64,000 nt of DNA, from assembly GCA_964016885.1 (NCBI GenBank), contig OZ024743.1, positions 9,238,001-9,302,000 of the forward strand. Direction: 5' to 3'. The notes under the pieces are model-generated. The model made no database searches, had not been told where the DNA came from, and saw only the letters and a program-made list of their open reading frames with translations. Position numbers and translations under genes: made by a program. Of this stretch, positions 4,032 through 61,236 are shown piece by piece. Within the stretch, counting starts at the first letter, position 1; the number at the start of each line of letters is the position of its first letter. Source of the stretch: Eledone cirrhosa. Lineage: Eukaryota.

Positions 4032-4109
<78 letters not shown>

Positions 4110-4115
<6 letters not shown>

Positions 4116-5200
4116 TTCAAATATTAACAAAATAGATATTCTTGTGATCAATTAAATTTTAATATATATATTTCAGAGGTACTTGAATCAAGTTCAACAG
4201 TACGTCCTCATCAGATAAAATAAAATGATACACGAGTTCGGTCTTCCCTACTAATGTACTGATTTAATATAATATATGAACAAATAATAAAAAAATAATT
4301 AATAATTTTTAGTCCTCTTATTATGATCAATGCACATATATATATATATATATATATAGCTGAAAACTCTGACTTCTTTAGGTTTAATTGTTATACTTTA
4401 GGCACTATAACTATTTAACAATAAATCCCTTGATAGTTATAACTGTAAATACTTCATAAACAATACTTATGGAAAATGTTGTCACTGTTACAAGTAATTT
4501 TGTTAAAGATTACCTTTGTGAGAATTTTGAACAGTATATATTTTTCCTTCGCGGGCCTCGTAAATCCTTTAAACTTGTTTTCATAAAACTTTAAATTTTG
4601 AAATTTAACAATTTTATAAAATTTATAAAATTTATAAAATTAATACATATAACCATCAACTTTTAAAACCCAAAATTTTGATTCTTTACCCTAAAATAAC
4701 ATAAATTAAATATTTTGAAATTTAACCGCCAAGGTTATACATGTTTATATGTGACCGAAGAAAATTTGAGCATAAATTACTCCCCTTTATCTCTCCCTCT
4801 CTTTAATTATCTGTAGGTTGCATTCTCAAGCTAAAAACTCAATAAATTATAACTCCAGATACGTCTTACTCTATAGTCCTATAGTAGTATTTCAGATTTT
4901 AAAAACTCTATAACTGTTGCATTAAGGCAATGTTTTTCTAACTCACACTCTCTCTATTGATTCTACTACGTTTTCGCATGTTCTTAATATTAGGGTATGC
5001 ATATTGAGTTTTCTCATAAGTTAATCACTACCTTGATTAAATCTTAACCATCTAACATGTCAGGGTATGTCATGTATCATTTTATTTTATCTGATGAGGA
5101 CGTACTGTTGAACTGGATTCAAGCACCTCTGAAATATATATAATAAAATTAAATTGATCACAAGAATATCTATTTTGTTAATATTTGAATTAATATTAAT
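4110..5200 (+). mobile_element. Non-coding PLE 3' remnant with inverted terminal copy
   Basis: 4110-4232 is the reverse complement of ~5073-5195. Both arms contain an HHR and the element is flanked by (TA)n. Confidence 0.7.
5084..5149 (+). ncRNA. Minimal type I hammerhead ribozyme
   Basis: attttat-CTGATGA-stem II-GAAA-TATATA-TA-ataaaat. Inverted copy at 4156-4221(-). Confidence 0.75.
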
Positions 5201-5278
5201 AACTCTGGAAAATATTTTTCTGTAATATATATATATATATATATATACACGTAAACACACACAAATATATATGTGACT

Positions 5279-6133
5279 GGAAAAAAATGAAACGAAATTT
5301 CATTTCTCACTCTTAGTACGGTTGTTACTTAAATATAAGTATGTATACGTACATACATATATGTATACAGACGTACAGTAGTATGTATATATATACATAC
5401 ATGCACACATATATATATGTACGTATGGTTTTACCGAGCATTTATTATAATGCTCGGTTTGTTTGTAAACAAACATCCCGAATTAAGCCGTACAGTGTCT
5501 AGCAACCATCGTTGCCCTTTTGTCCAACACTGACAAAGGAACGCTGTACTAGCTTCAAGCTTATCAGCTATCGTCAACAACGTATACCCTCCTGCCAGAT
5601 GATTGAACGTCTGAAAGTATATACTTTCCTTATGCATATTAACGGCTGAGCAGCCTAATTTGCATATCGAGTGAGTTAATTGGCCGGGCGTCTGTATACA
5701 TATATGTATGTACGTATACATACTTATATTTAAGTAACAGCCGTACTAAGAGTGAGAAATAAAATTTCGTTTCATTTTTTTCCATTTATCGATTTCGGTA
5801 CGCCCGGCCGATTAACTCACTCGGTATGCAAATTAGGCTGCTCAGCCGTTAATATGCATAAGGAAAGTATATACTTTCAGACCTTCAAGCATCTGGCAGG
5901 AAGGTATACGGTGCTGACGATAGCTAATAAGCTTGAAACTAGTACAGCGTTCCTTTGTCAGTGTTGAACAAATGAGCAACGATGGTTGCTAGACACTGTA
6001 CGGTTTACAAACAAACCGAGCATTATAATAAATGTTCGGTGAATTCATACGTACATATATATATGTGTGCATGTATGTATATATATACATATTACTGTAC
6101 GTCTGTATACATATACGTATGTACGTATACATA

Positions 6134-6140
<7 letters not shown>
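5279..6140. mobile_element. Non-coding HHR-bearing mini-element 'alpha': one minus unit (5279-5690) plus a permuted plus unit (5689-6140)
   Basis: The two halves are reverse complements in circularly permuted order. The ~411-bp unit has no real ORF. The same family recurs at 26557-27226. Confidence 0.8.
5908..5950 (+). ncRNA. Minimal type I hammerhead ribozyme (intact core, GUA site)
   Basis: acggtg-CTGACGA-tagct aata agctt-GAAA-CTAG-TA-cagcgt. Degenerate copies at 5541-5583(-) and 26919-26969(+). Confidence 0.8.
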
Positions 6141-6186
<46 letters not shown>

Positions 6187-25369: not shown

Positions 25370-25430
<61 letters not shown>

Positions 25431-25433
<3 letters not shown>

Positions 25434-25761
25434 AAAAAAGATGAAATTGAAAATGCAACTCGAGTCTTTTTAAAAAGAAATATATTTATTTGGTTCCTTT
25501 ACCCGTTTCGCAGTTCTTGCGCTTTTCAAAAGTAGAAATGAGATGGAGGGTTTGTGTTTTTTCTCACATGTGAGAAAAACCACAAACCCTCCATCTCAAT
25601 TCTACTCTTGAAAAGCACAAGAACTGCGAAACGGGTAAAGGAACCAAATAAATATATAAAAAAAAAAATACTCCAGTTGCATTTTTGATTTCATCTTCTT
25701 TCCTTATACTTTCCCTAGTGTAGGACACCTCGTTTTTTTTCATTTTGTAAAAACACCTCAC

Positions 25762-25770
<9 letters not shown>
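25431..25770. mobile_element. Head-to-head pair of solo 3' modules of the Neptune-like PLE family (HHR-bearing)
   Basis: Both arms match 55740-55950, with a palindromic centre ttctcacatgtgagaa. Flanked by (TA)n. Confidence 0.85.
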
Positions 25771-25805
<35 letters not shown>

Positions 25806-25844
25806 GAGGAGGTTATAGTTCACTTGAAGCATTGTGTAATGAGG

Positions 25845-26214
25845 TATAAACGTTTGAATATGTGTAATAAAGCCAAAACAATGCAGGTATGGACATAGAA
25901 AAAAGAATGCAATTGTAAAAGATATTGTTGACAATTCGTCCTTTACCTTGAATTTATTTAAATGTCCTTAATTTTCGAGATAATATCTCTTCTTCGGAGG
26001 GAAATAAAGGTCTCAAACCAGCGCTTTAAATATCATTTAAAGCGCTGGTTTGAGACCTTTATTTCCCTCCGAAGAAGAGATATTATCTCGAAAATTAAGG
26101 ACATTTAAATAAATTCAAGGTAAAGGACGAATTGTCAACAATATCTTTTACAATTCCATTCTTTTTTCTATGTCCATACCTGCATTGTTTTGGCTTTATT
26201 ACACATATCCAAAC

Positions 26215-26221
<7 letters not shown>
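25845..26221. repeat. ~187-bp-arm palindrome with a 3-nt spacer carrying an HHR-like motif
   Basis: Centre tttaaat-atc-atttaaa; about 2 mismatches seen. cct-CCGAAGA-agagat att atctc-GAAA-AT-TA-agg at 26066-26100. Confidence 0.85.
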
Positions 26222-26496: not shown

Positions 26497-26556
<60 letters not shown>

Positions 26557-26559
<3 letters not shown>

Positions 26560-27224
26560 CAAACGAGCAACGATGGTTGCTGGACATTACAGGTTAATAC
26601 GGGATGTTTGTTTACAAACACACCGAGCATTATAATAAATGTTCGGTGAATCCATACGTACATATATATATGTGTGCATGTATGTATATATATATACATA
26701 CTACTGTACGTCTGTATACATATATGTCTATACATGTACATACTTATATTTAAGTAACAGCCGTACTAAGAGTGGGAAATGAAATTTCGTTTCATTTTTT
26801 CCGTTTATCGTTTTCGGTGCACCCGGCCGATTAACCCACTCGATATGCAAATTGGGCTACTCAGCCGTTAATATGCATAAGGTAAGTATATACGTTCAAC
26901 AATCTGGCAGGAAGGTATACGTTGATGACGATAGCTAATAAGCTTGAAAGCTTGAAACTAGTACAGCGTTCCTTTATCAGTGTTGAACAAACGAGCAACG
27001 ATGGTTGCTGGACACTACGGCTTAATATGGGATGTTTGTTTACAAACACACCCAGCATTATAATAAATGTTCGGTGAATCCATACGTACATATATATATG
27101 TATATATATATACATACTACTGTACGTCTGTATACATATATGTATGTACGTGTACATACTTATATTTAAGTAACAGCCGTACTAAGAGTGGGAAATGAAA
27201 TTTCGTTTCATTTTTTTTCCGTTT

Positions 27225-27226
<2 letters not shown>
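26557..27226 (+). mobile_element. Mini-element 'alpha', ~1.55 head-to-tail units (428-bp period)
   Basis: gaacaaacgagcaacgatgg occurs at 26557 and 26985. HHR at 26919-26969; (TA)n on both sides. Confidence 0.85.
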
Positions 27227-38305: not shown

Positions 38306-39449
38306 GGACCAATTTAGCTAACCCAATGTGTGGTCCAATTTAGCTAACCCAATGTGTGGTCCAATTTAGCTAACCCAATGTGTGGTCCAATTTAGCTAAC
38401 CCAGTGTGTGGTCCAATTTAGCTAACCCAGTGTGTGGTCCAATTTAGCTAACCCAGTGTGTGGTCCAATTTAGCTAACCCAATGTGTGGTCCAATTTAGC
38501 TAACCCAGTGTGTGGTCCAATTTAGCTAACCCAATGTGTGGTCCAAATTAGCTAACCCAATGTGTGGTCCAATTTAGCTAACCCAGTGTGTGGTCCAATT
38601 TAGCTAACCCAATGTGTGGTCCAAATTAGCTAACCCAATGTGTGGTCCAAATTAGCTAACCCAGTGTGTGGTCCAATTTAGCTAACCCAATGTGTGGTCC
38701 AAATTAGCTAACCCAATGTGTGGTCCAATTTAGCTAACCCAATGTGTGGTCCAATTTAGCTAACCCAATGTGTGGTCCAATTTAGCTAACCCAGTGTGTG
38801 GTCCAATTTAGCTAACCCAATGTGTGGTCCAATTTAGCTAACCCAATGTGTGGTCCAAATTAGCTAACCCAGTGTGTGGTCCAATTTAGCTAACCCAATG
38901 TGTGGTCCAATTTAGCTAACCCAATGTGTGGTCCAAATTAGCTAACCCAGTGTGTGGTCCAATTTAGCTAACCCAGTGTGTGGTCCAATTTAGCTAACCC
39001 AATGTGTGGTCCAAATTAGCTAACCCAGTGTGTGGTCCAATTTAGCTAACCCAGTGTGTGGTCCAATTTAGCTAACCCAATGTGTGGTCCAAATTAGCTA
39101 ACCCAGTGTGTGGTCCAATTTAGCTAACCCAATGTGTGGTCCAAATTAGCTAACCCAATGTGTGGTCCAATTTAGCTAACCCAATGTGTGGTCCAAATTA
39201 GCTAACCCAATGTGTGGTCCAATTTAGCTAACCCAATGTGTGGTCCAATTTAGCTAACCCAGTGTGTGGTCCAATTTAGCTAACCCAATGTGTAGTCCAA
39301 TTTAGCTAACCCAGTGTGTGGTCCAATTTAGCTAACCCAGTGTGTGGTCCAATTTAGCTAACCCAGTGTGTGGTCCAATTTAGCTAACCCAGTGTGTGGT
39401 CCAATTTAGCTAACCCAGTGTGTGGTCCAATTTAGCTAACCGAATATGT
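38306..39449. repeat. 26-bp minisatellite, ~44 copies
   Basis: Unit ggtccaa(t/a)ttagctaaccca(a/g)tgtgt with no spacers. Confidence 0.97.
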
Positions 39450-41399
39450 GCTTGGCTATGAGGGAACTTATAAATACTATTACATTTACACATACAACTT
39501 AACAAATATTTAAAGTGTGTGTTATATGCAAGAAATTCGTAATTTTATATAAAGCAAACAGAGATCATATAATATACAGCAAAGGTTGACATGAAGCTTT
39601 GTGAAATTCGAAATACACTGATATAAGATATAATTTTCCCTTTTCCAGAAATAATGATAAAAAAGACCGGCGGTTTATAAATATAAAATTTCTGATACCG
39701 ATAGGAGAAACTACATTCAGCTTACCGACCGGGAAACAAATTAGCCGAATTGGTTTAGTGAAAAGAAAGCAAATATTTCCGTGGGTAAATTGACTATTAA
39801 GCATGCCTCGTTATCTACTTCAGAAATATATGAGATAACGTTAACCTATTTATAAACTATATAATTGCAACTATTCTTATATTCTACTATTAGGTGGTAC
39901 GGAACGATTTAAACCGAAATTATGAACACAAATTATGTACTTGCATCTGTACTTATGTCTGTATTATAAATTAATACATAATGACTAGATATTTTATTAA
40001 CAGCCAATAATGTCATCATTTATATTGAATACTTGAATGATTCTGAAATACTTGAGCAATAACCTCTTTCATTTAGCCAACTGGAACGGTAGAACAGAAA
40101 TAGATGCAGAACCAGCAACTAATCAATAACACCACTATCTATCAGAAAAAATACAACCGTCAGTCTCAATAGAATTCTAAAGTAATGAATATCATTGAAA
40201 ATTATTGAAGCCAAACAGGCATATATAAGGTAAACAAAACTTTTAAAATGTTAAATTCCCTTTGAAATTATATAACTTTATATCAAACAAGTTGTTAGGA
40301 ACGTTGTCATGGTATAGACGATAGTTTGTTTCTGAAATCTTAAGTGTACTGTCAAATAGAATTTAAAGAATGGTAGGTCACGTTACTAAGGCTAATACAC
40401 GTTTCAGAGAAGGATCATTTGAATGAAATCCACAGGCTCACAGCAGCACAGCAAACACATGTTTACTTGTCACAAAATACTTGAGCGAATAATACTGTTG
40501 CAGTTTGAAACTTCATGCCGATTTGTGATTACTGGAAGAAGGGCCTACATAATAGAATAATGCACTTGACTAAGGCAGTGATAGTACTGAGTCCGTACAA
40601 GATGGAAGTGAGTTGACTTCCTGGGCGAAATGAAATGAACTAACGTTTCAGATATTATCTCTTCTTGGGAGAGAGAATATATATGTATTATCACTAAGGT
40701 TACAGATCTCCGAGTGAGAAATTGAATAAAGGAGTGGTAGGGAGAAGTTGATGTGAAGAAAGGAGGGGAAAGCCAGTGGGAGTTGGTGTAAGTAGTGTAC
40801 GAGCTGTACGTAGGAAGAGGAAGTATGAGTTGAAGGTTTCGTTTTTTTGTAAGGGGCGGGGAGGTGTTTGCATAATGATCCAAGTCAGTCAATATGGGAG
40901 AGATGTGTTTAGAGATAAGCCATGTGAGTTTGGAAATAAATGATAATGCAAGGCAAAGACAAAGGGTGGACAAAAGGACGAATATACAATAACATTGACG
41001 CGTATGCCCCCAAAATGGGGAGTTGGGAATGGAAATGGTTGAAGCAGCTAGTAAAGAACTGAGATCAACAAGGAGTGGCCAGTTGTAAATTATGAAAAAT
41101 ATTAGGATTCTGAGGAAGTGATCATGATTACGACAACAAAAACGTATATTAGGGTATGTAAAAAGATGGGGTGATGCGTGGAGTATGAAAATAGTAAATA
41201 GAGAAGTCAAACAACGCGCTATCTCATTGTACACATGTAAAAATTAGTATATGCAATAATATACACCTCAATCCAACCAAATCTCGCCATATGGCGGTGC
41301 CCCAGTATGGCCTCAGCCTGACGGCGGGAACACGTAATACAATAATAGAGTAATAAGAAAAATAACTTTTGAGAGAGCGGGGAATAGAAGGTAGAATCA

Positions 41400-49848: not shown

Positions 49849-49924
<76 letters not shown>

Positions 49925-50807
49925 GAAAAAGAGATGAAATCGAAAATGCAACTGGCGTCTTATTTTTTTTAAAAATATATATATTTACCGGTTTCGCAGT
50001 TCTTCTGCTTTTCAAAAGGTGAGTTGAGATGGAGGGTCTGTGGTTTTTCTAGAAGTAATTTGATTGGTTTGTCAATAATTATAATAAATTTCGCGCCAGT
50101 TCGCGTTACAATAGTTCTTCAAATAAGAGGGGGGGGGGGGGTTGTCACAGGTTGATTTTTTCATATATGAGTGTTTGAATTTCTTTTTACTTGAAAAAAG
50201 GGGCTCACGAAGGCTTTTTTTTGGTTGGTTATAAATGAAATTATGGTTGTCACGTGAACAAGTTTTCATTAAATTTTCGTGCCCTTATTTGGAAATCCAG
50301 TCTGTAGCCTTTTTAGAGAATTTTATGATAAGTGAAAGATAATGGTCAAGAGAAAGGGATGGGAGAATTGTTCTGGTTCAGTGAATATGGTTAGTTCGCT
50401 GGGGTGTCAGAATTCAAATTTTCTATTGAATAAAGACAGTAAAGATATGTATGTTTATTTGTGTGCTTGTGTGTGTGTGCGTGTGTGTGTGTGTTGTGTG
50501 TGTGTGTGTTTGAATTTCTTTACTTAAAAAAAGGTGGCTCACGAAGGCTTTTTTTTAATAAACGTGATTTGATTGGTTATAAATGAAATTTGGCTGTCAC
50601 GTGAACAAGTTTTCATTACATTTTTGCGCCCTTATTTGGAAATCTATTCTGTAACCTTTATAGAGAATGTTATGACAAGGGAAAGATAGTGGTCAAGAGA
50701 AATGGGATTGGGAGAATTGTTCTGGTTCAGTGAATATGGTTAGATCGCTGGGGTGTCAGAGTTCAGATTTTCTATTGAAGTAAAGATATGTATGTTTATT
50801 TGTGTGC

Positions 50808-50857
<50 letters not shown>

Positions 50858-52128
50858 GTGTATTGGAAGATCATTCTATTAGTAGAAATGGGGGAGGGAG
50901 TTGTGTGTGTGTGTATATGGGTGTTATGTGTGTGTGCGAGTATGTTAAGATGGAGCGAATATATATTTTGTGTGTGTGTATATATGTGTGTAGGAAAGTG
51001 GTTCTATTAGTAGAAATGGGGAGGTAGTTGTGGGTGTGGGGGTTGTTATGTGTGTGTGTGGGAGTATGGTTAGCATTTAAGATGAAGAGAATATATATAT
51101 ATATATATTGTGTGTGTGTGGGTGTGTGTGTAGGAAAATGATTCCTTTAGTAGGAATATTTTTGAATGAACATATTTTCCTTACTTATTCGTATTTGTTC
51201 TGTTGTATTGTCAGTGCAAACGTATGTTAACGTTTATTTAGTTCGGGTTTTTATTTTCTAAAGTAGAATGTGTTATGTGTGTGTGTGTATGTCATATTAT
51301 GGTGTTGACATAATGTATATTAAACCATATTTAATGCTGGTCTATATTTTTGAATAAACATATTTTCCTTATTTATTCGTATTTGTTCTGTTGTATTGTT
51401 AGCGCAAAGGTAAAATGGGAAAACTTGGAATTTGGGTGTCTTATTACTTGCGCAAATGTCTAGATGTGCACTTAGTGGTATCTGTCTTGTGGTTGGATCT
51501 CGTAATTGTTGGCGATGAACTGTCATTCTGTTTCTGAGTATGAGTTTAGTTTCTCCTATATAATCTTCATTGCATCCTTTACATTTAATGGCATAAATTA
51601 GATTTTTTGATGAGCAAGTGAAGTGATTTTTTACAGTAAAATTTTGTCCTGATTTAAATGATTACGTGTTGGAATAGGTTTTGTGTGGGTTGTGATCTGC
51701 GGATCAGGTCCTGCCTTGTGTTCGGGATCTTTGGTTTTTGTTAGTAGGGTTATAGTTTTGTCTATGATTTTGGGGATTATCGTTATAGTTTTGCTGGGGG
51801 AATGTTTGACGTTTTGATACTTTTTCCCAGAAACCATAGACAAAACTATTCATAGATAAACCTATTCCAAAACCGTAGACCCCTGCCCACACAGAGCCTG
51901 TTCCAAAACCGTAGATCCCAACCCACAGAAAGGAACAAAATCTACAACCGGGACTATCAACAAACCGAACCTCAATACGTCCGAAACTTCTATACAAGAC
52001 CACACAACAACAGGGGAAATACCATTAGATATAATAATACCATTGAAAAAACAAACATTCCAGAAAAATCATTTTTTAGACCAAGGCTACAGGACTCACA
52101 ACACCCGGTGGCACAAACCGATTTTGAA

Positions 52129-54391
52129 AAACCGAAAATAATCAACCTTTCAAATACAAACCTCTCAGCCCAACAAGTAAAAATTCTCTCCAAAGGACTG
52201 TAATTCACGCCAACTTCACAATACTCGAACCCCAATGAGATAAATGACGATATCTCACACTTCTGTAGAAAATTACGTCTCACAGAGGAATTCTTTGACA
52301 AGTAGAATAACGACGAATCAATTGCACGGAATAAAAGCAGCTACAACCCAACAAAAGGTAGAAACAGAGTTCTGGACAAATTTTGTGACCACATAGCTAC
52401 CTTCCCATACCATGAACTACCGCAACCTAAACCCAAACCCAACACGAGTCGAAGGGAATGGGAGATTATCCATGAACTAAAAAACAATACGGACATTATA
52501 ATTAAGGAAGCGGACAAGGGAAGTACTGTTGTCATTATGGAGGCTGAAAAATATAAAAATTCTATGTTCTCTCTCTTACAAAATACTAATTACTATGAAA
52601 GAGTAAAAAACTACCAGCAATCAAAAATAATGACCAGATTAAACACACTGATTTATCGATACCAGGAAGACCTAACTAAAAAGGAACGCGATTATTTAAC
52701 AAATTTTGAATACAAAACCAGCAACCTTTACGGACTTCCGAAGATCCACAAGTGTAAAATAATCAACGATGCCTGTAAACAATCCACCTCAGCCTGCGTG
52801 AACACACAATACCCCACAGACCTTAAATTAAGACCAATTGTAGCGGGCCCACAATGTGAAACACACAGACTGAGCAACTTTATAGACATACTACTGAAAC
52901 CAATGCTCAAACACATACCAAGCCTTGTAAGAGACGATCTGAACTTCTTAAACCACCTCCCCACATGTCAACAACGACACTATTATTGTGTCTTTCGATG
53001 TAGTGAATCTCTACACAACGATCCCACACCAATACGGACTAGAAGCAATAGGATTCTGGCTAGAGAAATATCCCAATGAGATACCTGACAGAATAGAAAA
53101 AAGCTTCATCACCGAGGGATTAAAATTCATCTTACAGAACAACTTTTTTGATTTCGATGGCAATACTTACAAGCAAATATGGGGGACTGCGATGGATACA
53201 AAAGCCGCTCCAACTTATGCCAACTTAGTCATGGCATACTTAGAAGTCCAGATATATGAACAGTCCAAATCAAAATACGGATTGAACTTCCACAAATATT
53301 TATCAGAGAATTGGAAACGCTACTTGGATGATTGTCTCATTCTTTGGTCCCACACACTCGCCCAACTGAAGGATTTCAAAAACTTAATAAACGGCATCAA
53401 TAACCACATCCAATTCACAATGGAATACAGCCAAGATCAACTCCCATTTCTGGACATCTCTATCTTAAAAAAAGACACAAATATCGAAACTGACATACAC
53501 TACAAACCAACAGATTCCAAACAATATCTGCTATTCACCTCCAACCATCCAAAGCACACGAAGACGAACATTCCTTTTAACCTAGCAAGAAGAATTTGCA
53601 CAATTATGAAACGCGAAATAAAAGACTTCAAGAATTAAAGGAAATTCTACTCGAGAGAGAGTACCCACTATTACTAATAAATAATGGAATAGAAAGGGCT
53701 AAAGCAATAGGCATTGATGAATTACGGAAACAGAAACAAATTCAAGGTACTTCCAATATTCTATCATATATCTCAACACACAACCCAAGAAATGCGGAAG
53801 CTTACAACACTATTCACAAGAACATCTATTCACAAGAACATCCCACTACTAAAACAAAACCCAAGAAAAAAGCCCTTGAAAAAAGCCCTTGAAACACACA
53901 AAATAATCAAAAGCAAAAGACAACCAAAATCACTGAAAACATTACACACCAATGCCAAGTTACCTACCACAAACCCACAACCAAGTATAACAAAATGTGG
54001 TCGCTCTAATTGTGGAACCTGCACTCACCTCATTGAAGGCAACACGTATACATTTAAATCAGGACAAAATTTTACTGTAAAAAATCACTTCACTTGCTCA
54101 TCAAAAAATCTAATTTATGCCATTAAATATAAAGGATGCAATGAAGATTATATAGGAGAAACTAAACTCATACTCAGAAACAGAATGACAGTTCATCGCC
54201 AACAATTACGAGATCCAACCACAAGACAGATACCACTAAGTGCACATCTAGACATTTGCGCAAGTAATAAGACACCCAAATTCCAAGTTTTCCCATTTTA
54301 CCTTTGCACTAACAATACAACAGAACAAATACGAATAAATAAGGAAAATATGTTTATTCAAAAATATAGACCAGCATTAAATATGGTTTAA
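52129..54391 (+). pseudogene. PLE RT-GIY-YIG ORF, disrupted by stops and frameshifts
   Basis: IINLS..LSKGL*FTPT; IIIKEADKGSTVVIM; LYGLPKIHK; LRPIVAGP; SFDVVNLYTTIP; GTAMDTKAAPTYANL; RYLDD; FLDISI..YKPTD; Cys linker KCGRSNCGTC..C; NLIYAI..GCNEDYIGET..LRNRMTVHR. Stops at 52201 and 52302. Confidence 0.95.
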
Positions 54392-54849
54392 TATACATTA
54401 TGTCAACACAATAATATGACATACACACACACACATAACACATTCTACTTTAGAAAATAAAAACCCGAACTAAATAAACGTTAACATACGTTTGCACTGA
54501 CAATACAACAGAACAAATACGAATAAGTAAGGAAAATATGTTCATTCAAAAATATTCCTACTAAAGGAATCATTTTCCTACACACACACCCACACACACA
54601 CAATATATATATATATTCTCTTCATCTTAAATGCTAACCATACTCCCACACACACACATAACAACCCCCACACCCACAACTACCTCCCCCATTTCTACTA
54701 ATAGAACCACTTTCCTACACACATATATACACACACACAAAATATATATTCTCTCCATCTTAACATACTCGCACACACACACATAACACCCATATACACA
54801 CACACAGAACTCCTTCCCCCATTTTTACTAATAGAATCATCTTCCAATA

Positions 54850-54894
<45 letters not shown>

Positions 54895-55773
54895 GCACAC
54901 AAATAAACATACATATCTTTACTTCAATAGAAAATTTGAATTCTGACACCCCAGCGAACTAACCATATTCATTGAACCAGAACAATTCTCCCAATCCCAT
55001 TTCTCTTGACCACTATCTTTCCCTTGTCATAACATTCTCTATAAAGGCTACAGAATAGATTTCCAAATAAGGGCGCAAAATGTAATGAAAACTTGTTCAC
55101 GTGACAGCCAAATTTCATTTATAACCAATCAAATCACGTTTATTAAAAAAAGCCTTCGTGAGCCACCTTTTTTTAAAGTAAAGAAATTCAAACACACACA
55201 CCCACAACACACACACACACACACACGCACACACACACACACACACATACACACACACAAGCACACAAATAAACATACATATCTTTACTGTCTTTATTCA
55301 ATAGAAAATTTGAATTCTGACACCCCAGCGAACTAACCATATTCACTGAACCAGAACAATTCTCCCATCCCTTTCCCTTGACCATTATCTTTCACTTATC
55401 ATAAAATTCTCTAAAAAGGCTACAGAATGGATTTCCAAATAAGGGCACGAAAATTTAATGAAAACTTGTTCACGTGACAGCCATAATTTCATTTATAACC
55501 AACCAAAAAAAAGCCTTCGTGAGCCCCTTTTTTTCAAGTAAAAAGAAATTCAAACACTCATATATGAAAAAAACAACCTGTGACAACCTCCCCCTCTTAT
55601 TTGAAGAACTATTGTAACGCGAACTGGCGCGAAATTTATTATAATTATTGACAAACCAATCAAATTACTTCTCGAAAAACCTGGCATTTCGAGCCACTTT
55701 TTCCATATAAAACAAGTAACATTCAGAGACCAACCAGATGTGAGAAAACCCACAGACCCTCCATCTCAACTCA

Positions 55774-55811
55774 CCTTTTGAAAAGCAGAAGAACTGCGAA
55801 ACCGTTAAAGG
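55774..55811 (+). ncRNA. Minimal hammerhead with the U3:A8 variant core
   Basis: cctt-TTGAAAA-gcag aagaa ctgc-GAAA-CCG(T/G)-TA-aagg. Copies at ~25496(-), ~25604(+), ~26309(+), ~49985(-). Confidence 0.7.
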
Positions 55812-55968
55812 AACCAAATAAATATATATATTTAAAAAAAAAATAAGACTCCAGTTGCATTTTCGATTTCATCTCTTTTTCTTTATACTTTCACTCGTGT
55901 AGGACACCTCGGTTATTTTACAATTTGTAAAAAAAACCTCACTTTCTAATATATATATATATATATAT

Positions 55969-56508
55969 ATAATGAAATGACAGGAGGCTGGATTTGTGTA
56001 AATCCTTGAAAGGTTTATGATACTATGATCATTTCAATGACCGGGTTCCGTATGAAAACGGTGATATCATCAGGTATTCGAAATATAATACGTGAATTTA
56101 ATAGATAAAATCCATGGGCTGAAAATCGAGGACCCGAGGGCGATCGCTATCCTGTACCTTCTACCTTAGCCGGTCGCCCTCGAGTGACGTGGCCAAAACT
56201 TACAATGTGTTACTACCGGTCAGATAAAGGAAAACAGAAAGGGATGGGAACATAAGTTAGCGGTAGTAGTACACTGTAAGCTTTGGCCACGTCACTCGAG
56301 GGCGACCGGCTAAGGTAGAAGGTACAGGATAGCGATCGCCCTCGGGTCCTCGATTTTCAGCCCCATGGATTTTATCTATTACATTCACGTATTATATTTC
56401 GAATACCTGATATCACCGGATTCATACGGAACCCGGTCATTGAAATGATCATAGTATCATAAACCTTTCAAGGATTTACATAAATCCAGCCTCCTGTCAT
56501 TTCATTAT
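55969..56508. mobile_element. Fold-back PLE-type non-coding remnant with ~250-bp arms
   Basis: 55969-56219 is inverted at ~56261-56508. Intact HHR on the minus strand at 56021-56076: tac-CTGATGA-...-GAAA-TGATCA-TA-gta. Confidence 0.85.
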
Positions 56509-56655
56509 AATATTTAACTCCGTAATAGCACCACCAACTACAAAAACAAAGACAGTTGAACTGCTTTACGTTGAGTACTCTCTATATTATTACATTACGA
56601 TTGACCATACGGAATAGACCAGCTCTATCAAGTGGTGAACCCCAAACCTGAATAA

Positions 56656-58654: not shown

Positions 58655-60562
58655 ATACTTGGGGAGGGTCATATTTGCGTAATATTGCCAGAATTAATAA
58701 CGGAACACACTCACTGTTTGGTTGGTTTTCGCTTCTCGCTGTCTTTTATATCTGCGATCTAACTTACTCGGTCCTCAATGTTGCCATTGACTGACCGACG
58801 GTCAAAAATAATACAGATACAATATAGACACAAACACATATATATAGTTTACATAATTTACATAAATCTTTCGTTGCACATCTGCAACATCGTCAGGGGT
58901 GTTATATTATTTGTTCCTCCTGTTGTGTTGTATGTCTACACCATTTTTTATTCAGTCTGTCTATATATTTATTTATTTATTTGCTTGTTTGTTTATCTTA
59001 TTTTATTTTGTCTTTTTTGCGCATGCGTTTGCGTGTGTGTATAGTGTTATGTGTGCTGTGTGACTAGTGTGTATAGTGTTGTGTCTGCTGGGTGACTAGT
59101 GTGTGTTTATGTGCTTGTTGTTATTGTGCTTGTGTATGTATTTATTTATCTTATTTTATTTTATTTTATTTTATTTACTTATTTATACTTCTCTTAGTCA
59201 GTGTTGTTTGTTTGGGTGTTGTTGTTGTTCCACTCATTCTTTCTGTTTAGCTTTGGTCTTCTAATTTCTATTTCAGCGGCCTCTCTGATTTGCCTATCTG
59301 CTGGGTCATTCCTATGTTTAGATATTATTCTAATTTCTATGTTGTCTATGTTACCGTCATGTTGTTGTCTAGCATGTTCGTATAGTACTGACCCGTTTTT
59401 TCGTCCTTTTAGTTCCCCCCAGTGTTGGTCTATCCTTTCACCTATGCTACGAGCTGTCTCACCTATGTATGTTGTTGTCATGTTTCTGCAAGTACCCTCT
59501 GTACATCTTATGCTATAAACTACGTTTCTAGTTTTACAGTTTATCCGGGGGTTCACCTTACATATGATACATTTCCTATTGGTACAGTGGGGTTTCTTAA
59601 AAGGGTAGGTTTTGCTGATCAGGGATTTTATGGTGGTTCCTGGCTTTTCTACCACCTTTATTTTTAAGTGGGTCTTTCTCAGGGCCTTTCTACACTGGTT
59701 AGCTAATTTCCCTCCAGGGGTGGCGTCCACAAACATGACACTCTGATATCTCTGGTTGTCGCACCATGATGTGGCCTTCCCTATCTTATGTCTAGCCCTA
59801 TCTAAGCTATTCCATGATTTGCTCCTGTATAGTGGGCAAATTCCTTTCATGTCCAGTTCTATGAGGGTCTTATACTTTTCCATGGCTCCTTCGTATACTC
59901 TGACTCTGTCTCTTTGGTTGTAGCCAGAGAACTGCATGCGGTTGATGAAGTGTTGGATGTGTCTTTCCATTTCTGTTGGGTCGCACATGCTGGACACATT
60001 CTTCATCACTCGTACCAAATCTGCGATCAGAATATTAAACTTAGCACTACTGGAGATTGCTGAGTTTTTGAGTATCAGGTATTTGGAGGCCATGGGTTTA
60101 GCATAGTGTGAGTGGAGAATTTGGGCTCTCTCGTCTATAGTGTTAATCCAGAGTTCTGTGTCTAATACAGGTAGTCTATTGTTAGGGTGTTTGGAAGGGA
60201 AGTCGATAGTTACAGTTATACTCTGGTGTATGGAATTAGCTATCTGCTGGATGCTTTCCATCGTGCTACGTTCTAAATCAAACTTGTTAGTGGTCTCTAG
60301 TGGGGGTGTTCTTATAACTATATTGATATCGTCTACATAACGAGAGTACATGATGAGGTCTATGGAGCTTTCATCAAGGAGATCTTTAAGTCTCCTTTCC
60401 CACCATACCATGAAAAGGTTGGCAACATCACCAGCTATGCTGACGCCGATGGCTGCTCCCTCATTTTGGGTGTAGATTTTCTCATTGAACTTAAATATGT
60501 GGCCCTTTAGGCTAGTTTTGATACTATCCCCTATTGCATGTGCGACCATTTTTCTTACCTGA
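58651..60562 (-). mobile_element. 5'-truncated Penelope-like element (Nematis-like)
   Basis: Open RT-EN frame plus a 3' UTR. HHR-like CTGACGA-gttgca..tgcaac-GAAA at ~58869-58899; ends at (TA)n. Confidence 0.92.
59194..60562 (-). CDS. PLE RT (C-terminal half) plus GIY-YIG endonuclease; uninterrupted but 5'-truncated
   Basis: GAAIGVSIAGDVANLFM; YSRYVDDINI; LPVLDTELWI; HYAKPMAS; PLYRSKSW; KVVEKPG; CxxxxCxxC..C; NVVYSIRC..C..YIGETARS..ERIDQH; RQIREA..LNRKNEW. Confidence 0.9.
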
Positions 60563-61236
60563 TCAGTGTTTATATATATATATTGTTTACATGTTACTGG
60601 TTGGTTGTTTGTTCTATGTGTGTGTGTTTTCATTTTGTCCTTAATTGTAAGTAGTGATGTTGCTATTCCATTCATCTTTTATATTTAATTTTGGTTGGAG
60701 TTCATTTATGTTTATTGCCTCTGTGATTTGTCTAAAAGACGCAATGTTTAGACAAATCACAGAGGCAATAAACATAAATGAACTCCAACCAAAATTAAAT
60801 AGAAAAGATGAATGGAATAGCAACATCACTACTTACAATTAAGGACAAAATGAAAACACACACACACACATAGAACAAACAATCAACCAGTAACATGTAA
60901 ACAAACAAATAAATATACAAATATAAACACACACAGACACCCGGATGTAACACATGCGCAAACTAAGCACACAACACACACAAAAACAAGATCGCGAAGG
61001 ACAGAACAAAGGAGAGGCACAAAACAAAGAAAAGAATCCCCAGTCACTGAAGAGGTCACAGAATGTGTGAGGAAAGAACTTTGACAATATATGAACAACC
61101 GTCCGGTTATGGAACCAACCAACCGGAAATTTATAAATTCTTAAATTTATAAATTTAATTCATAATAAATTGGAGTGAAAGCAACTGGTGCGTGTGTTTC
61201 TTATTGGCAACATGACCCTCCCAAAGCATATCAATA
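60563..61236 (+). mobile_element. Second Nematis-like PLE 3' end with an inverted copy
   Basis: 60563-60735 is inverted at 60745-60925. Encodes the EN end FRQITEAININELQPKLNRKDEW*. HHR gtca-CTGAAGA..GAAA..TT-tgac at 61043-61085. Confidence 0.85.

What the first reader, a model, noticed from the sequence alone, without database searches (positions are those of the whole stretch)
5279..6140. Alpha unit appears in different circular permutations and is densely self-structured
The plus copy starts and ends at gtctgtatacat..catacttatat (5689-6140), whereas the 26.5-kb copy starts at gaacaaacgagc and ends at ttttccgtttat. All copies read as the same ~411-428 nt circle. Besides the HHR, the unit has several hairpins: accgagcatt..aatgttcggt, agcaac..gttgct, gaaagtatatactttc and atgcaaatt..aatatgcat. 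Permutation plus terminal redundancy is what reverse transcription around a circular RNA would leave.
Basis: partly seen in the sequence, partly recalled or inferred. Interest (0 to 1): 0.75.

Follow-up and report, generated by a model that had tools for sequence, protein, structure and literature searches.

The report
Hammerhead retrozyme with two fixed ends
This is one of thousands of copies of a protein-free 428-base repeat carrying a predicted self-cutting RNA motif; its copies start anywhere but end at two fixed points, one per arm in back-to-back pairs, which likely records a borrowed Penelope-type enzyme copying the RNA, probably a circle, from both sides of a DNA break.

Summary
The sequences, periods (411/428 nt) and four hairpins are as described, and the unit folds better than shuffles (z -4 to -9). 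The permutation is not free. In the hammerhead sense, 5' ends are spread evenly, but 117 of 142 arms end at two sites 62 nt apart, mostly followed by (TA)n. The locus 5279-6140 is a head-to-head pair, and 47 of 49 such pairs join one short-ended and one long-ended arm. This is the one-sided 'tail' of Penelope-like elements, matching their two internal reverse-transcription start sites. No ORF is attached, 18 arms exceed two units, and there is no pile-up at the ribozyme cut. It is a non-LTR retrozyme, likely moved by Penelope-type target-primed copying. The short overlap in the window does not prove a circle. Better support comes from young relatives with 8+8 and 7+13 identical units across both arms. 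Long linear templates are not excluded, and old arrays also grew after insertion. No RNA data and no partner element were found. The scan had already reported this layout on other DNA of this genome.

The parts
5279..5688 (-). Inverted arm of the two-armed insertion, 0.95 unit; 5' end at unit phase 288, 3' end at phase 267-269, about 6 nt short of the long end (site B, phase 275). Phase 1 is the base after the predicted ribozyme cut.
5689..6140 (+). Plus arm, 1.05 units (period 411); 5' end at phase 176, 3' end at the short end (site A, phase 213-216); joined head to head to the minus arm with 0-3 nt overlap
5908..5950 (+). Type I minimal hammerhead motif: core 5914-5944, 4-bp stem II, 2-bp stem III inside the palindrome ACTAGT, predicted cut after 5944; stem I has one mismatch in this copy
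   Evidence: activity not tested
5547..5577 (-). Hammerhead motif of the inverted arm, with two core positions mutated
5826..5859 (+). Hairpin ATGCAAATT..AATATGCAT; its 5' arm holds the octamer ATGCAAAT, kept in 10 of 12 aligned units
5863..5878 (+). Palindromic hairpin, lost by an 8-nt deletion in the subfamily of the 26.5-kb copy
5975..5990 (+). Hairpin AGCAAC..GTTGCT, 2 of 6 pairs changed on both sides in relatives
6015..6040 (+). Hairpin ACCGAGCATT..AATGTTCGGT, 5 of 8 pairs changed on both sides in relatives
5225..5278 (.). Left flank with a (TA)n run
6136..6182 (.). Right flank (TA)23; likely the target microsatellite
26556..27226 (+). Single-armed copy, 1.57 units, 5' end at phase 21, 3' end at site B; (TA)n on both sides; hammerhead core damaged
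27163..27226 (+). The roughly 62-nt 'tail' between site A and site B, with a hairpin

Best explanation
This is a two-armed insertion of a protein-free, hammerhead-bearing tandem repeat (a non-LTR retrozyme) whose copies end at two fixed sites 62 nt apart, likely because a borrowed Penelope-type enzyme nicks a (TA)n target and starts reverse transcription at those two internal sites, one per DNA end, on an RNA that is probably a circle. Shown: the fixed 3' ends, evenly spread 5' ends, one-short-one-long pairing, no attached ORF, copying across the ribozyme site, and long identical two-armed arrays in young relatives. Inferred: transcription, self-cleavage (probably as a dimer through the ACTAGT palindrome), ligation to a circle, the identity of the enzyme, simultaneous priming of both DNA ends (perhaps by a dimeric enzyme), and joining of the two cDNA 3' ends by end joining. 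Penelope-type two-site priming alone I put at about 0.9; a circular template, given that, at about 0.6-0.65.
For: 3' ends: 54 at phase 208-217 and 63 at 266-276 of 142 arms, windows that cover 21 of 428 phases; 94 of these 117 are followed by (AT)4; 5' ends are uniform, chi-square p 0.57. Pairs: 32 of 33 and 15 of 16 with both ends canonical are short+long; pooled p 4e-12. The same holds in 11 of 11 pairs of the 492-nt sister subfamily (3 of them read just outside the script's window) and 10 of 10 of the 468-nt sister family (read by eye). Penelope-like elements in the window show the same one-sided tail. Two internal start sites that define the tail were shown in vitro for an Anolis element, which extends both strands and is predicted to be a dimer (PMC11167929). 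Arms of a pair match at subfamily sites (33 mismatches of 440, against 41% for random pairs) and share rare variants about 8 times more often than random pairs. 5' ends exactly at the cut: 8 true of 12 hits, like a control phase (6 of 7), against 5,713 exact hits spanning the cut. For a circle: 8.3+7.9 units with 0 differences in 40,110 comparisons outside the TA tract; 63 units of one sister variant at 6 loci without a substitution, in arms up to 18 units; locus-specific variants fixed in all units of both arms.
Against: The enzyme's element was not found: none of 50 GIY-YIG loci carries the unit as its end repeat. 6 of 31 short arms mix subfamily markers between successive units, and pair arms differ in 4 of 54 marker comparisons, which one monomer circle cannot give without template switching or later conversion. 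The 25- and 50-unit arrays and a 10-unit arm show 8-, 4- and 2-unit higher-order patterns, so they grew after insertion. The marker of the 8+8 array also lies in arrays of 18 and 13 units elsewhere, which could serve as linear sources. One young arm has a variant in 6 of 10 units that the other arm lacks. Array length against age: rho -0.33, p 0.12, n 24. Identical units could be partly an effect of assembly. Target-site duplications were seen in only 1 of 96 insertions (control 2 of 300).
Confidence: 0.58

Rival explanations
1. Same two-site Penelope-type priming, but on long uncleaved linear transcripts read through genomic tandem arrays; no circle is needed, and arrays are extended or homogenised at the DNA level.
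For: [quoted passage not shown]
Against: Linear copying would hand on the differences between a source's units, yet several young insertions are uniform over both arms and carry their own fixed variants; in-register pair arms are no closer (3.9%) than adjacent units (3.7%) or offset units (3.9%); the ribozyme stems are kept by compensating changes.
Confidence: 0.32
2. The unit is only the end repeat (pLTR) of an autonomous Penelope-like element, and the copies are truncated stubs of it.
For: The ends, tail, inversion and (TA)n targets are those of autonomous elements; earlier scan notes found this for other genomes; only 50 loci from 10,596 GIY-YIG candidates were examined.
Against: 85 of 142 arms exceed one unit and run on into more unit, not into an ORF; 49 single-arm 5' flanks share no common upstream body; the longest ATG frame in a trimer is 49 aa (sense) or 64 aa (antisense); three lineages of 428, 492 and 468 nt all spread as tandem units.
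Confidence: 0.05
3. A satellite spread at the DNA level (extrachromosomal circles, rolling-circle replication, fold-back repair), with the hammerhead a relic.
For: Higher-order structure in long arrays.
Against: It does not explain strand-specific fixed 3' ends, the short+long pairing, or the compensated RNA stems.
Confidence: 0.05

Closest known systems
Metazoan non-LTR retrozymes (coral, mussel, axolotl; PMC7229834, passages read; bioRxiv 10.64898/2026.07.22.740005, parts 1-3 of 5 read)
   Same: ORF-less, low-GC (36-37%), self-paired tandem unit with one type I hammerhead per unit, from dimers to long multimers, thousands of copies, living beside Penelope-like elements; those papers propose circular RNA copied by a Penelope enzyme.
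   Different: Slightly longer than the 170-400 nt RNAs described in 2020; here the insertion ends are mapped to two fixed sites with strict short+long pairing, which I did not see in the parts read; circular RNA and cleavage are untested here; no homology to a named pLTR was found.
Endonuclease-bearing Penelope-like elements: inverted 5'-truncated copy, one-sided 30-40 bp tail, (TA)n targets (PMC8557442 and PMC3846280, passages; PMC11167929, parts 1-2 of 4)
   Same: 5' truncation, head-to-head inversion, tail at one end only, microsatellite targets, minimal hammerhead upstream of two internal start sites.
   Different: No RT/GIY-YIG frame; the tail is about 62 nt; the template is a tandem or circle of the unit itself; 3-5 nt of TTAT identity with the target lie at both sites, whereas the Anolis start site is not homologous to the target.
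Non-autonomous Chlamys elements such as MRC1 (PMC8557442 passage)
   Same: ORF-less Penelope derivatives with multicopy head-to-tail insertions.
   Different: That clade lacks canonical hammerheads, and those elements share 3' sequence with an autonomous family; no such match was found here.
L1 twin priming (recalled, no call)
   Same: Two primers on the target give two head-to-head arms.
   Different: In L1 the second site is variable and the arms do not overlap; here both sites are fixed and the arms cover the same template sequence.

Membership tests
Non-LTR retrozyme | [quoted passage not shown] | tested here: met
   428-nt period, motif in successive units, arrays of 25 and 50 units; pattern match only, Rfam 0 hits
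Non-LTR retrozyme | No protein-coding frame | tested here: met
   Longest ATG frame 49/64 aa; no shared upstream body in 49 flanks
Non-LTR retrozyme | Low GC and strongly self-paired monomer | tested here: met
   GC 0.36-0.37, circular z -4.7 to -8.9; 14 of 56 pairs changed on both sides across three lineages
Non-LTR retrozyme | Dispersed, mobile copies | tested here: met
   5,713 exact core hits on both strands; unrelated flanks
Non-LTR retrozyme | Self-cleavage of the RNA | not testable with these tools
   Core and palindromic stem III predicted; needs in vitro transcription
Non-LTR retrozyme | Expressed as linear and circular monomer RNA | not testable with these tools
   Needs RNA of this species; genomic evidence is indirect
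Non-LTR retrozyme | Target-site duplications longer than 4 bp, when present | tested here: inconclusive
   1 of 96 against 2 of 300 controls; (TA)n targets would hide them; one of about 17 bp seen by eye in a sister copy
Penelope-like element insertion (works like) | Two fixed 3' ends (tail) and 5' truncation | tested here: met
   117 of 142 3' ends at two sites; 5' ends uniform
Penelope-like element insertion (works like) | Inverted 5' copy with the tail at one end only | tested here: met
   47 of 49 pairs
Penelope-like element insertion (works like) | Microsatellite or AT-rich target | tested here: met
   (TA)n on both sides in 33 of 46 pairs and 16 of 50 single arms
Autonomous Penelope-like element (member) | RT plus GIY-YIG reading frame | tested here: not met
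   not filed as a member
Non-autonomous derivative of a named Penelope family | Homology to the pLTR of an autonomous partner | tested here: inconclusive
   No match among 50 GIY-YIG loci; the list of weak hits was cut at 5,000 characters; most candidates not examined

The most novel reading that the evidence does not exclude
A dimeric Penelope reverse transcriptase grips one small ribozyme-made RNA circle at two fixed sites flanking a hairpin, primes one on each end of a cut (TA)n, and both active sites roll round the same circle by strand displacement for up to 18 turns, writing back-to-back arrays into the genome. Young insertions would then be direct records of rolling-circle reverse transcription in an animal.
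Probability: 0.4. Interest if true: 0.7.

Novelty: new member of a known kind. Interest (0 to 1): 0.45.

Why it matters
The retrozyme papers propose, but in the parts I read do not show, that Penelope enzymes copy these RNAs and that circles are the templates. This family supplies a countable footprint: the Penelope tail on an ORF-less hammerhead repeat, a near-absolute one-short-one-long rule in two-armed insertions, and young relatives with long identical arms. That gives exact start sites and a substrate for an in vitro test with a purified Penelope protein, and an explanation for the head-to-head inversions of Penelope elements that differs from the published self-priming on an antisense template (PMC3846280 passage). 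Five paper searches listed no report of this family or of the strict pairing; I read only parts of seven papers and no supplements, which may hold cephalopod examples. Within this scan the layout was already reported several times for this genome.

Tried and rejected
Free circular permutation: rejected, 3' ends are fixed. Run-off at the ribozyme cut: rejected, 8 true 5' ends at the cut against 6 at a control phase whose flank filter was about twice as strict. Pile-up of 5' ends just before the hammerhead (a cluster at phase 392-399 in my sample, and a lead from earlier notes on other genomes): 24 hits, 12 true of 20 mapped, about equal to the control after allowing for the flank filters, so not supported. 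Two unrelated RNAs per pair: arms mostly agree, although subfamilies that were active at different times would also make them agree. A-to-I editing marks repeated unit after unit (lead e1-8668073): in this family fixed rare variants were A>G 5 and T>C 5; pooled over three lineages 20 and 15, p 0.5; not supported here, though three of the four variants fixed over both arms in two young sister arrays listed together are the A>G cluster of one variant. 'Born long, then shrink': p 0.12. A unique source for the 8+8 array: the marker has 195 hits, including other long arrays. Partner search: Pfam GIY-YIG gave 150 scored matches, 50 loci read, several families with their own hammerheads and tails, none homologous; a relaxed hammerhead pattern returned mainly the sister family. 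Target-site duplications: not above control. RNA: no RNA holder listed; contigs of four coded runs hold the unit or pieces of relatives but cannot show circles or expression. snRNA-type promoter by analogy with newt satellite 2 (recalled): one search gave only listings, not followed. A motif match at 62.9 kb is chance. Rows left out before counts: L001, L029, L030 and 11 overlapping pattern loci; 3 duplicates; the long and dimer-periodic arrays. Both main samples were chosen for spanning the hammerhead, so 123 of 142 arms crossing the cut is inflated.

Full report
Observation. The region 5279-6140 is two arms head to head: a minus arm 5279-5688 and a plus arm 5689-6140, between (TA)n runs. The window lies in a 3.0-Gb assembly rich in microsatellites; that it is a cephalopod is my inference and the wording of earlier scan notes, not a tool result.

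The unit. A tandem array on contig C3 gives a period of 427-428. Each unit holds a type I minimal hammerhead pattern: CTGACGA, a 4-bp stem II, GAAA, a 2-bp stem III inside the palindrome ACTAGT, and a predicted cut after GTA. PMC4209133 (passages) describes such short, palindromic helix III motifs as working as dimers. Rfam does not reach threshold. Five natural monomers fold as circles with z -4.7 to -8.9; without the TA tract z is -4.0 to -5.4 against -3.4 to +2.1 for 12 controls. Two related lineages, of about 492 nt (80-88% identical) and 466-468 nt (about 65%), align over the whole unit. On 12 aligned units, 14 of 56 named pairs change on both sides, including 3 of 6 in stem I and 3 of 5 in stem II; 87.6% of cells pair against 35-42% for slid controls. 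These changes come from only three or four lineages, so independent events are few. The exact 35-nt core occurs 5,713 times.

Mapping the ends. I numbered phases from the predicted cut and mapped 142 arms in 86 records: 27 best DNA hits, 57 records covering the pattern hits listed for the first 53 Mb of contig C1, the C3 array and the window. 3' ends fall at phase 208-217 (54 arms, site A) or 266-276 (63 arms, site B); 25 fall elsewhere. 94 of the 117 are followed by (AT)4. 5' ends are even over eight bins (p 0.57). So the permutation is fixed at one end. 85 arms exceed one unit and 18 exceed two.

The pairing rule. 46 head-to-head pairs and no tail-to-tail pair were found; of 33 with both ends canonical, 32 join A with B. 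A second set of 36 loci gave 27 pairs, 16 with both ends canonical, 15 of them A+B; pooled 47 of 49, p 4e-12. The 492-nt subfamily gave 16 pairs, 11 with both ends canonical, all A+B, three of them with the short end 2-3 nt outside the window my script used. The 468-nt family gave 10 of 10, four read from short inverted stubs in the flanks, with 2 further pairs having an odd end. Junctions are 12 overlapping, 8 blunt and 26 with filler. A Penelope-like element in the window (GIY-YIG above the Pfam cut-off) has a short left end near 49,920 and a right end about 68 nt longer near 55,950, and two stub pairs at 25.4-26.2 kb do the same.

What this matches. PMC8557442 and PMC3846280 (passages) describe 5' truncation, an inverted 5' copy, a tail often at one end only, and (TA)n targets. 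PMC11167929 (parts 1-2 of 4) shows that a purified Anolis protein cuts and extends both strands, starts at two internal sites that define the tail, is predicted to be a dimer, and does not need ribozyme cleavage. PMC7229834 (passages) and bioRxiv 10.64898/2026.07.22.740005 (parts 1-3 of 5) define non-LTR retrozymes and name Penelope elements as likely mobilisers. PMC6962438 (passages) only counts 235 hammerheads in giant squid. No supplements were read.

Not a stub of a full element. 49 single-arm 5' flanks share no upstream body, the unit has no frame above 64 aa, and none of 50 GIY-YIG loci has the unit as its end repeat. Several of those families carry a CX4CXXC motif before the nuclease, which PMC8557442 ties to Neptune and Nematis clades, and have hammerheads of similar build and (TA)n ends. 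They are candidate partners; no tree was built and no partner is shown.

Circle or linear multimer. A cleaved linear monomer is not the usual template: only 8 true 5' ends lie at the cut, like a control phase. In the family of the finding, copies are about 3% from the majority; adjacent units differ by 3.7%, pair arms by 3.9%, random pairs by 5.8%, and pair arms agree at subfamily sites. This fits one source per insertion but does not decide its shape. For a circle: one insertion of the 492-nt subfamily has 8.3 and 7.9 units, ends at A and B, and no difference outside the TA tract; one sister variant has 63 full units at 6 loci with no substitution and 5 small indels, in arms of up to 18 units; and many insertions carry their own variants in all units of both arms. 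Against, or limiting: 6 of 31 short arms mix subfamily markers; old long arrays have higher-order periods and so grew in place; long arrays with the same marker exist and could be read through; length does not fall significantly with age; assembly effects were not checked.

Earlier scan notes were consulted after the end mapping was done. Several report the same two-armed layout for 310-, 422-, 424-, 466- and about 500-nt families of this genome. They are unchecked AI notes and are not counted as support. Two leads from them were tested here and not supported for this family: a 5' pile-up before the hammerhead, and repeated A-to-I marks.

Verdict. The feature is real and is a new member of the animal non-LTR retrozymes that works like a Penelope insertion unit.

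Noticed in passing
window 49,920-55,970: Decayed Penelope-like element (RT-like frames 52306-53638, GIY-YIG in 53711-54391, + strand) with an inverted 5' arm; short end on the left, about 68-nt longer end on the right.
   Followed up: partly
window 25,430-25,770 and 25,800-26,220: Two adjacent head-to-head stub pairs from two different Penelope-like families, each with one short and one long end, piled in (TA)n next to the 26.5-kb copy.
   Followed up: partly
window 59,194-60,919: 494-aa frame on the minus strand with a weak RVT_1 match and a GIY-YIG-like end, next to an inverted repeat 60567-60919; hammerhead-like motifs at 58896 (-) and 61047 (+).
   Followed up: partly
window 4035-4235 / 5070-5272 and 55,960-56,516: Further inverted pairs with CTGATGA motifs (4214 -, 5091 +; 56073 -), likely ends of other Penelope-type families.
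   Followed up: no
G000 C1:84.357-84.366 Mb (L283): 8+8 identical units of the 492-nt subfamily in one two-armed insertion.
   Followed up: yes
G000 C1:30.83 Mb, C18:30.95 Mb, C1:56.39 Mb (L284-L287, L307, L308): Very young sister-family insertions of 7+13, 18+8 and 11+11 units; one variant has three A>G changes that destroy the octamer yet was copied to 7 loci.
   Followed up: partly
family-wide: Private G>A changes exceed C>T in the hammerhead sense (87 against 41 singletons), mainly outside CpG; unexplained, possibly deamination of single-stranded cDNA.
   Followed up: partly
window 5826-5833: Octamer ATGCAAAT kept across three lineages; an snRNA-type promoter role, as recalled for newt satellite 2, is untested.
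   Followed up: no
window 38,309-39,450: Young minisatellite, 44 copies of a 26-nt unit at 96% match.
   Followed up: no
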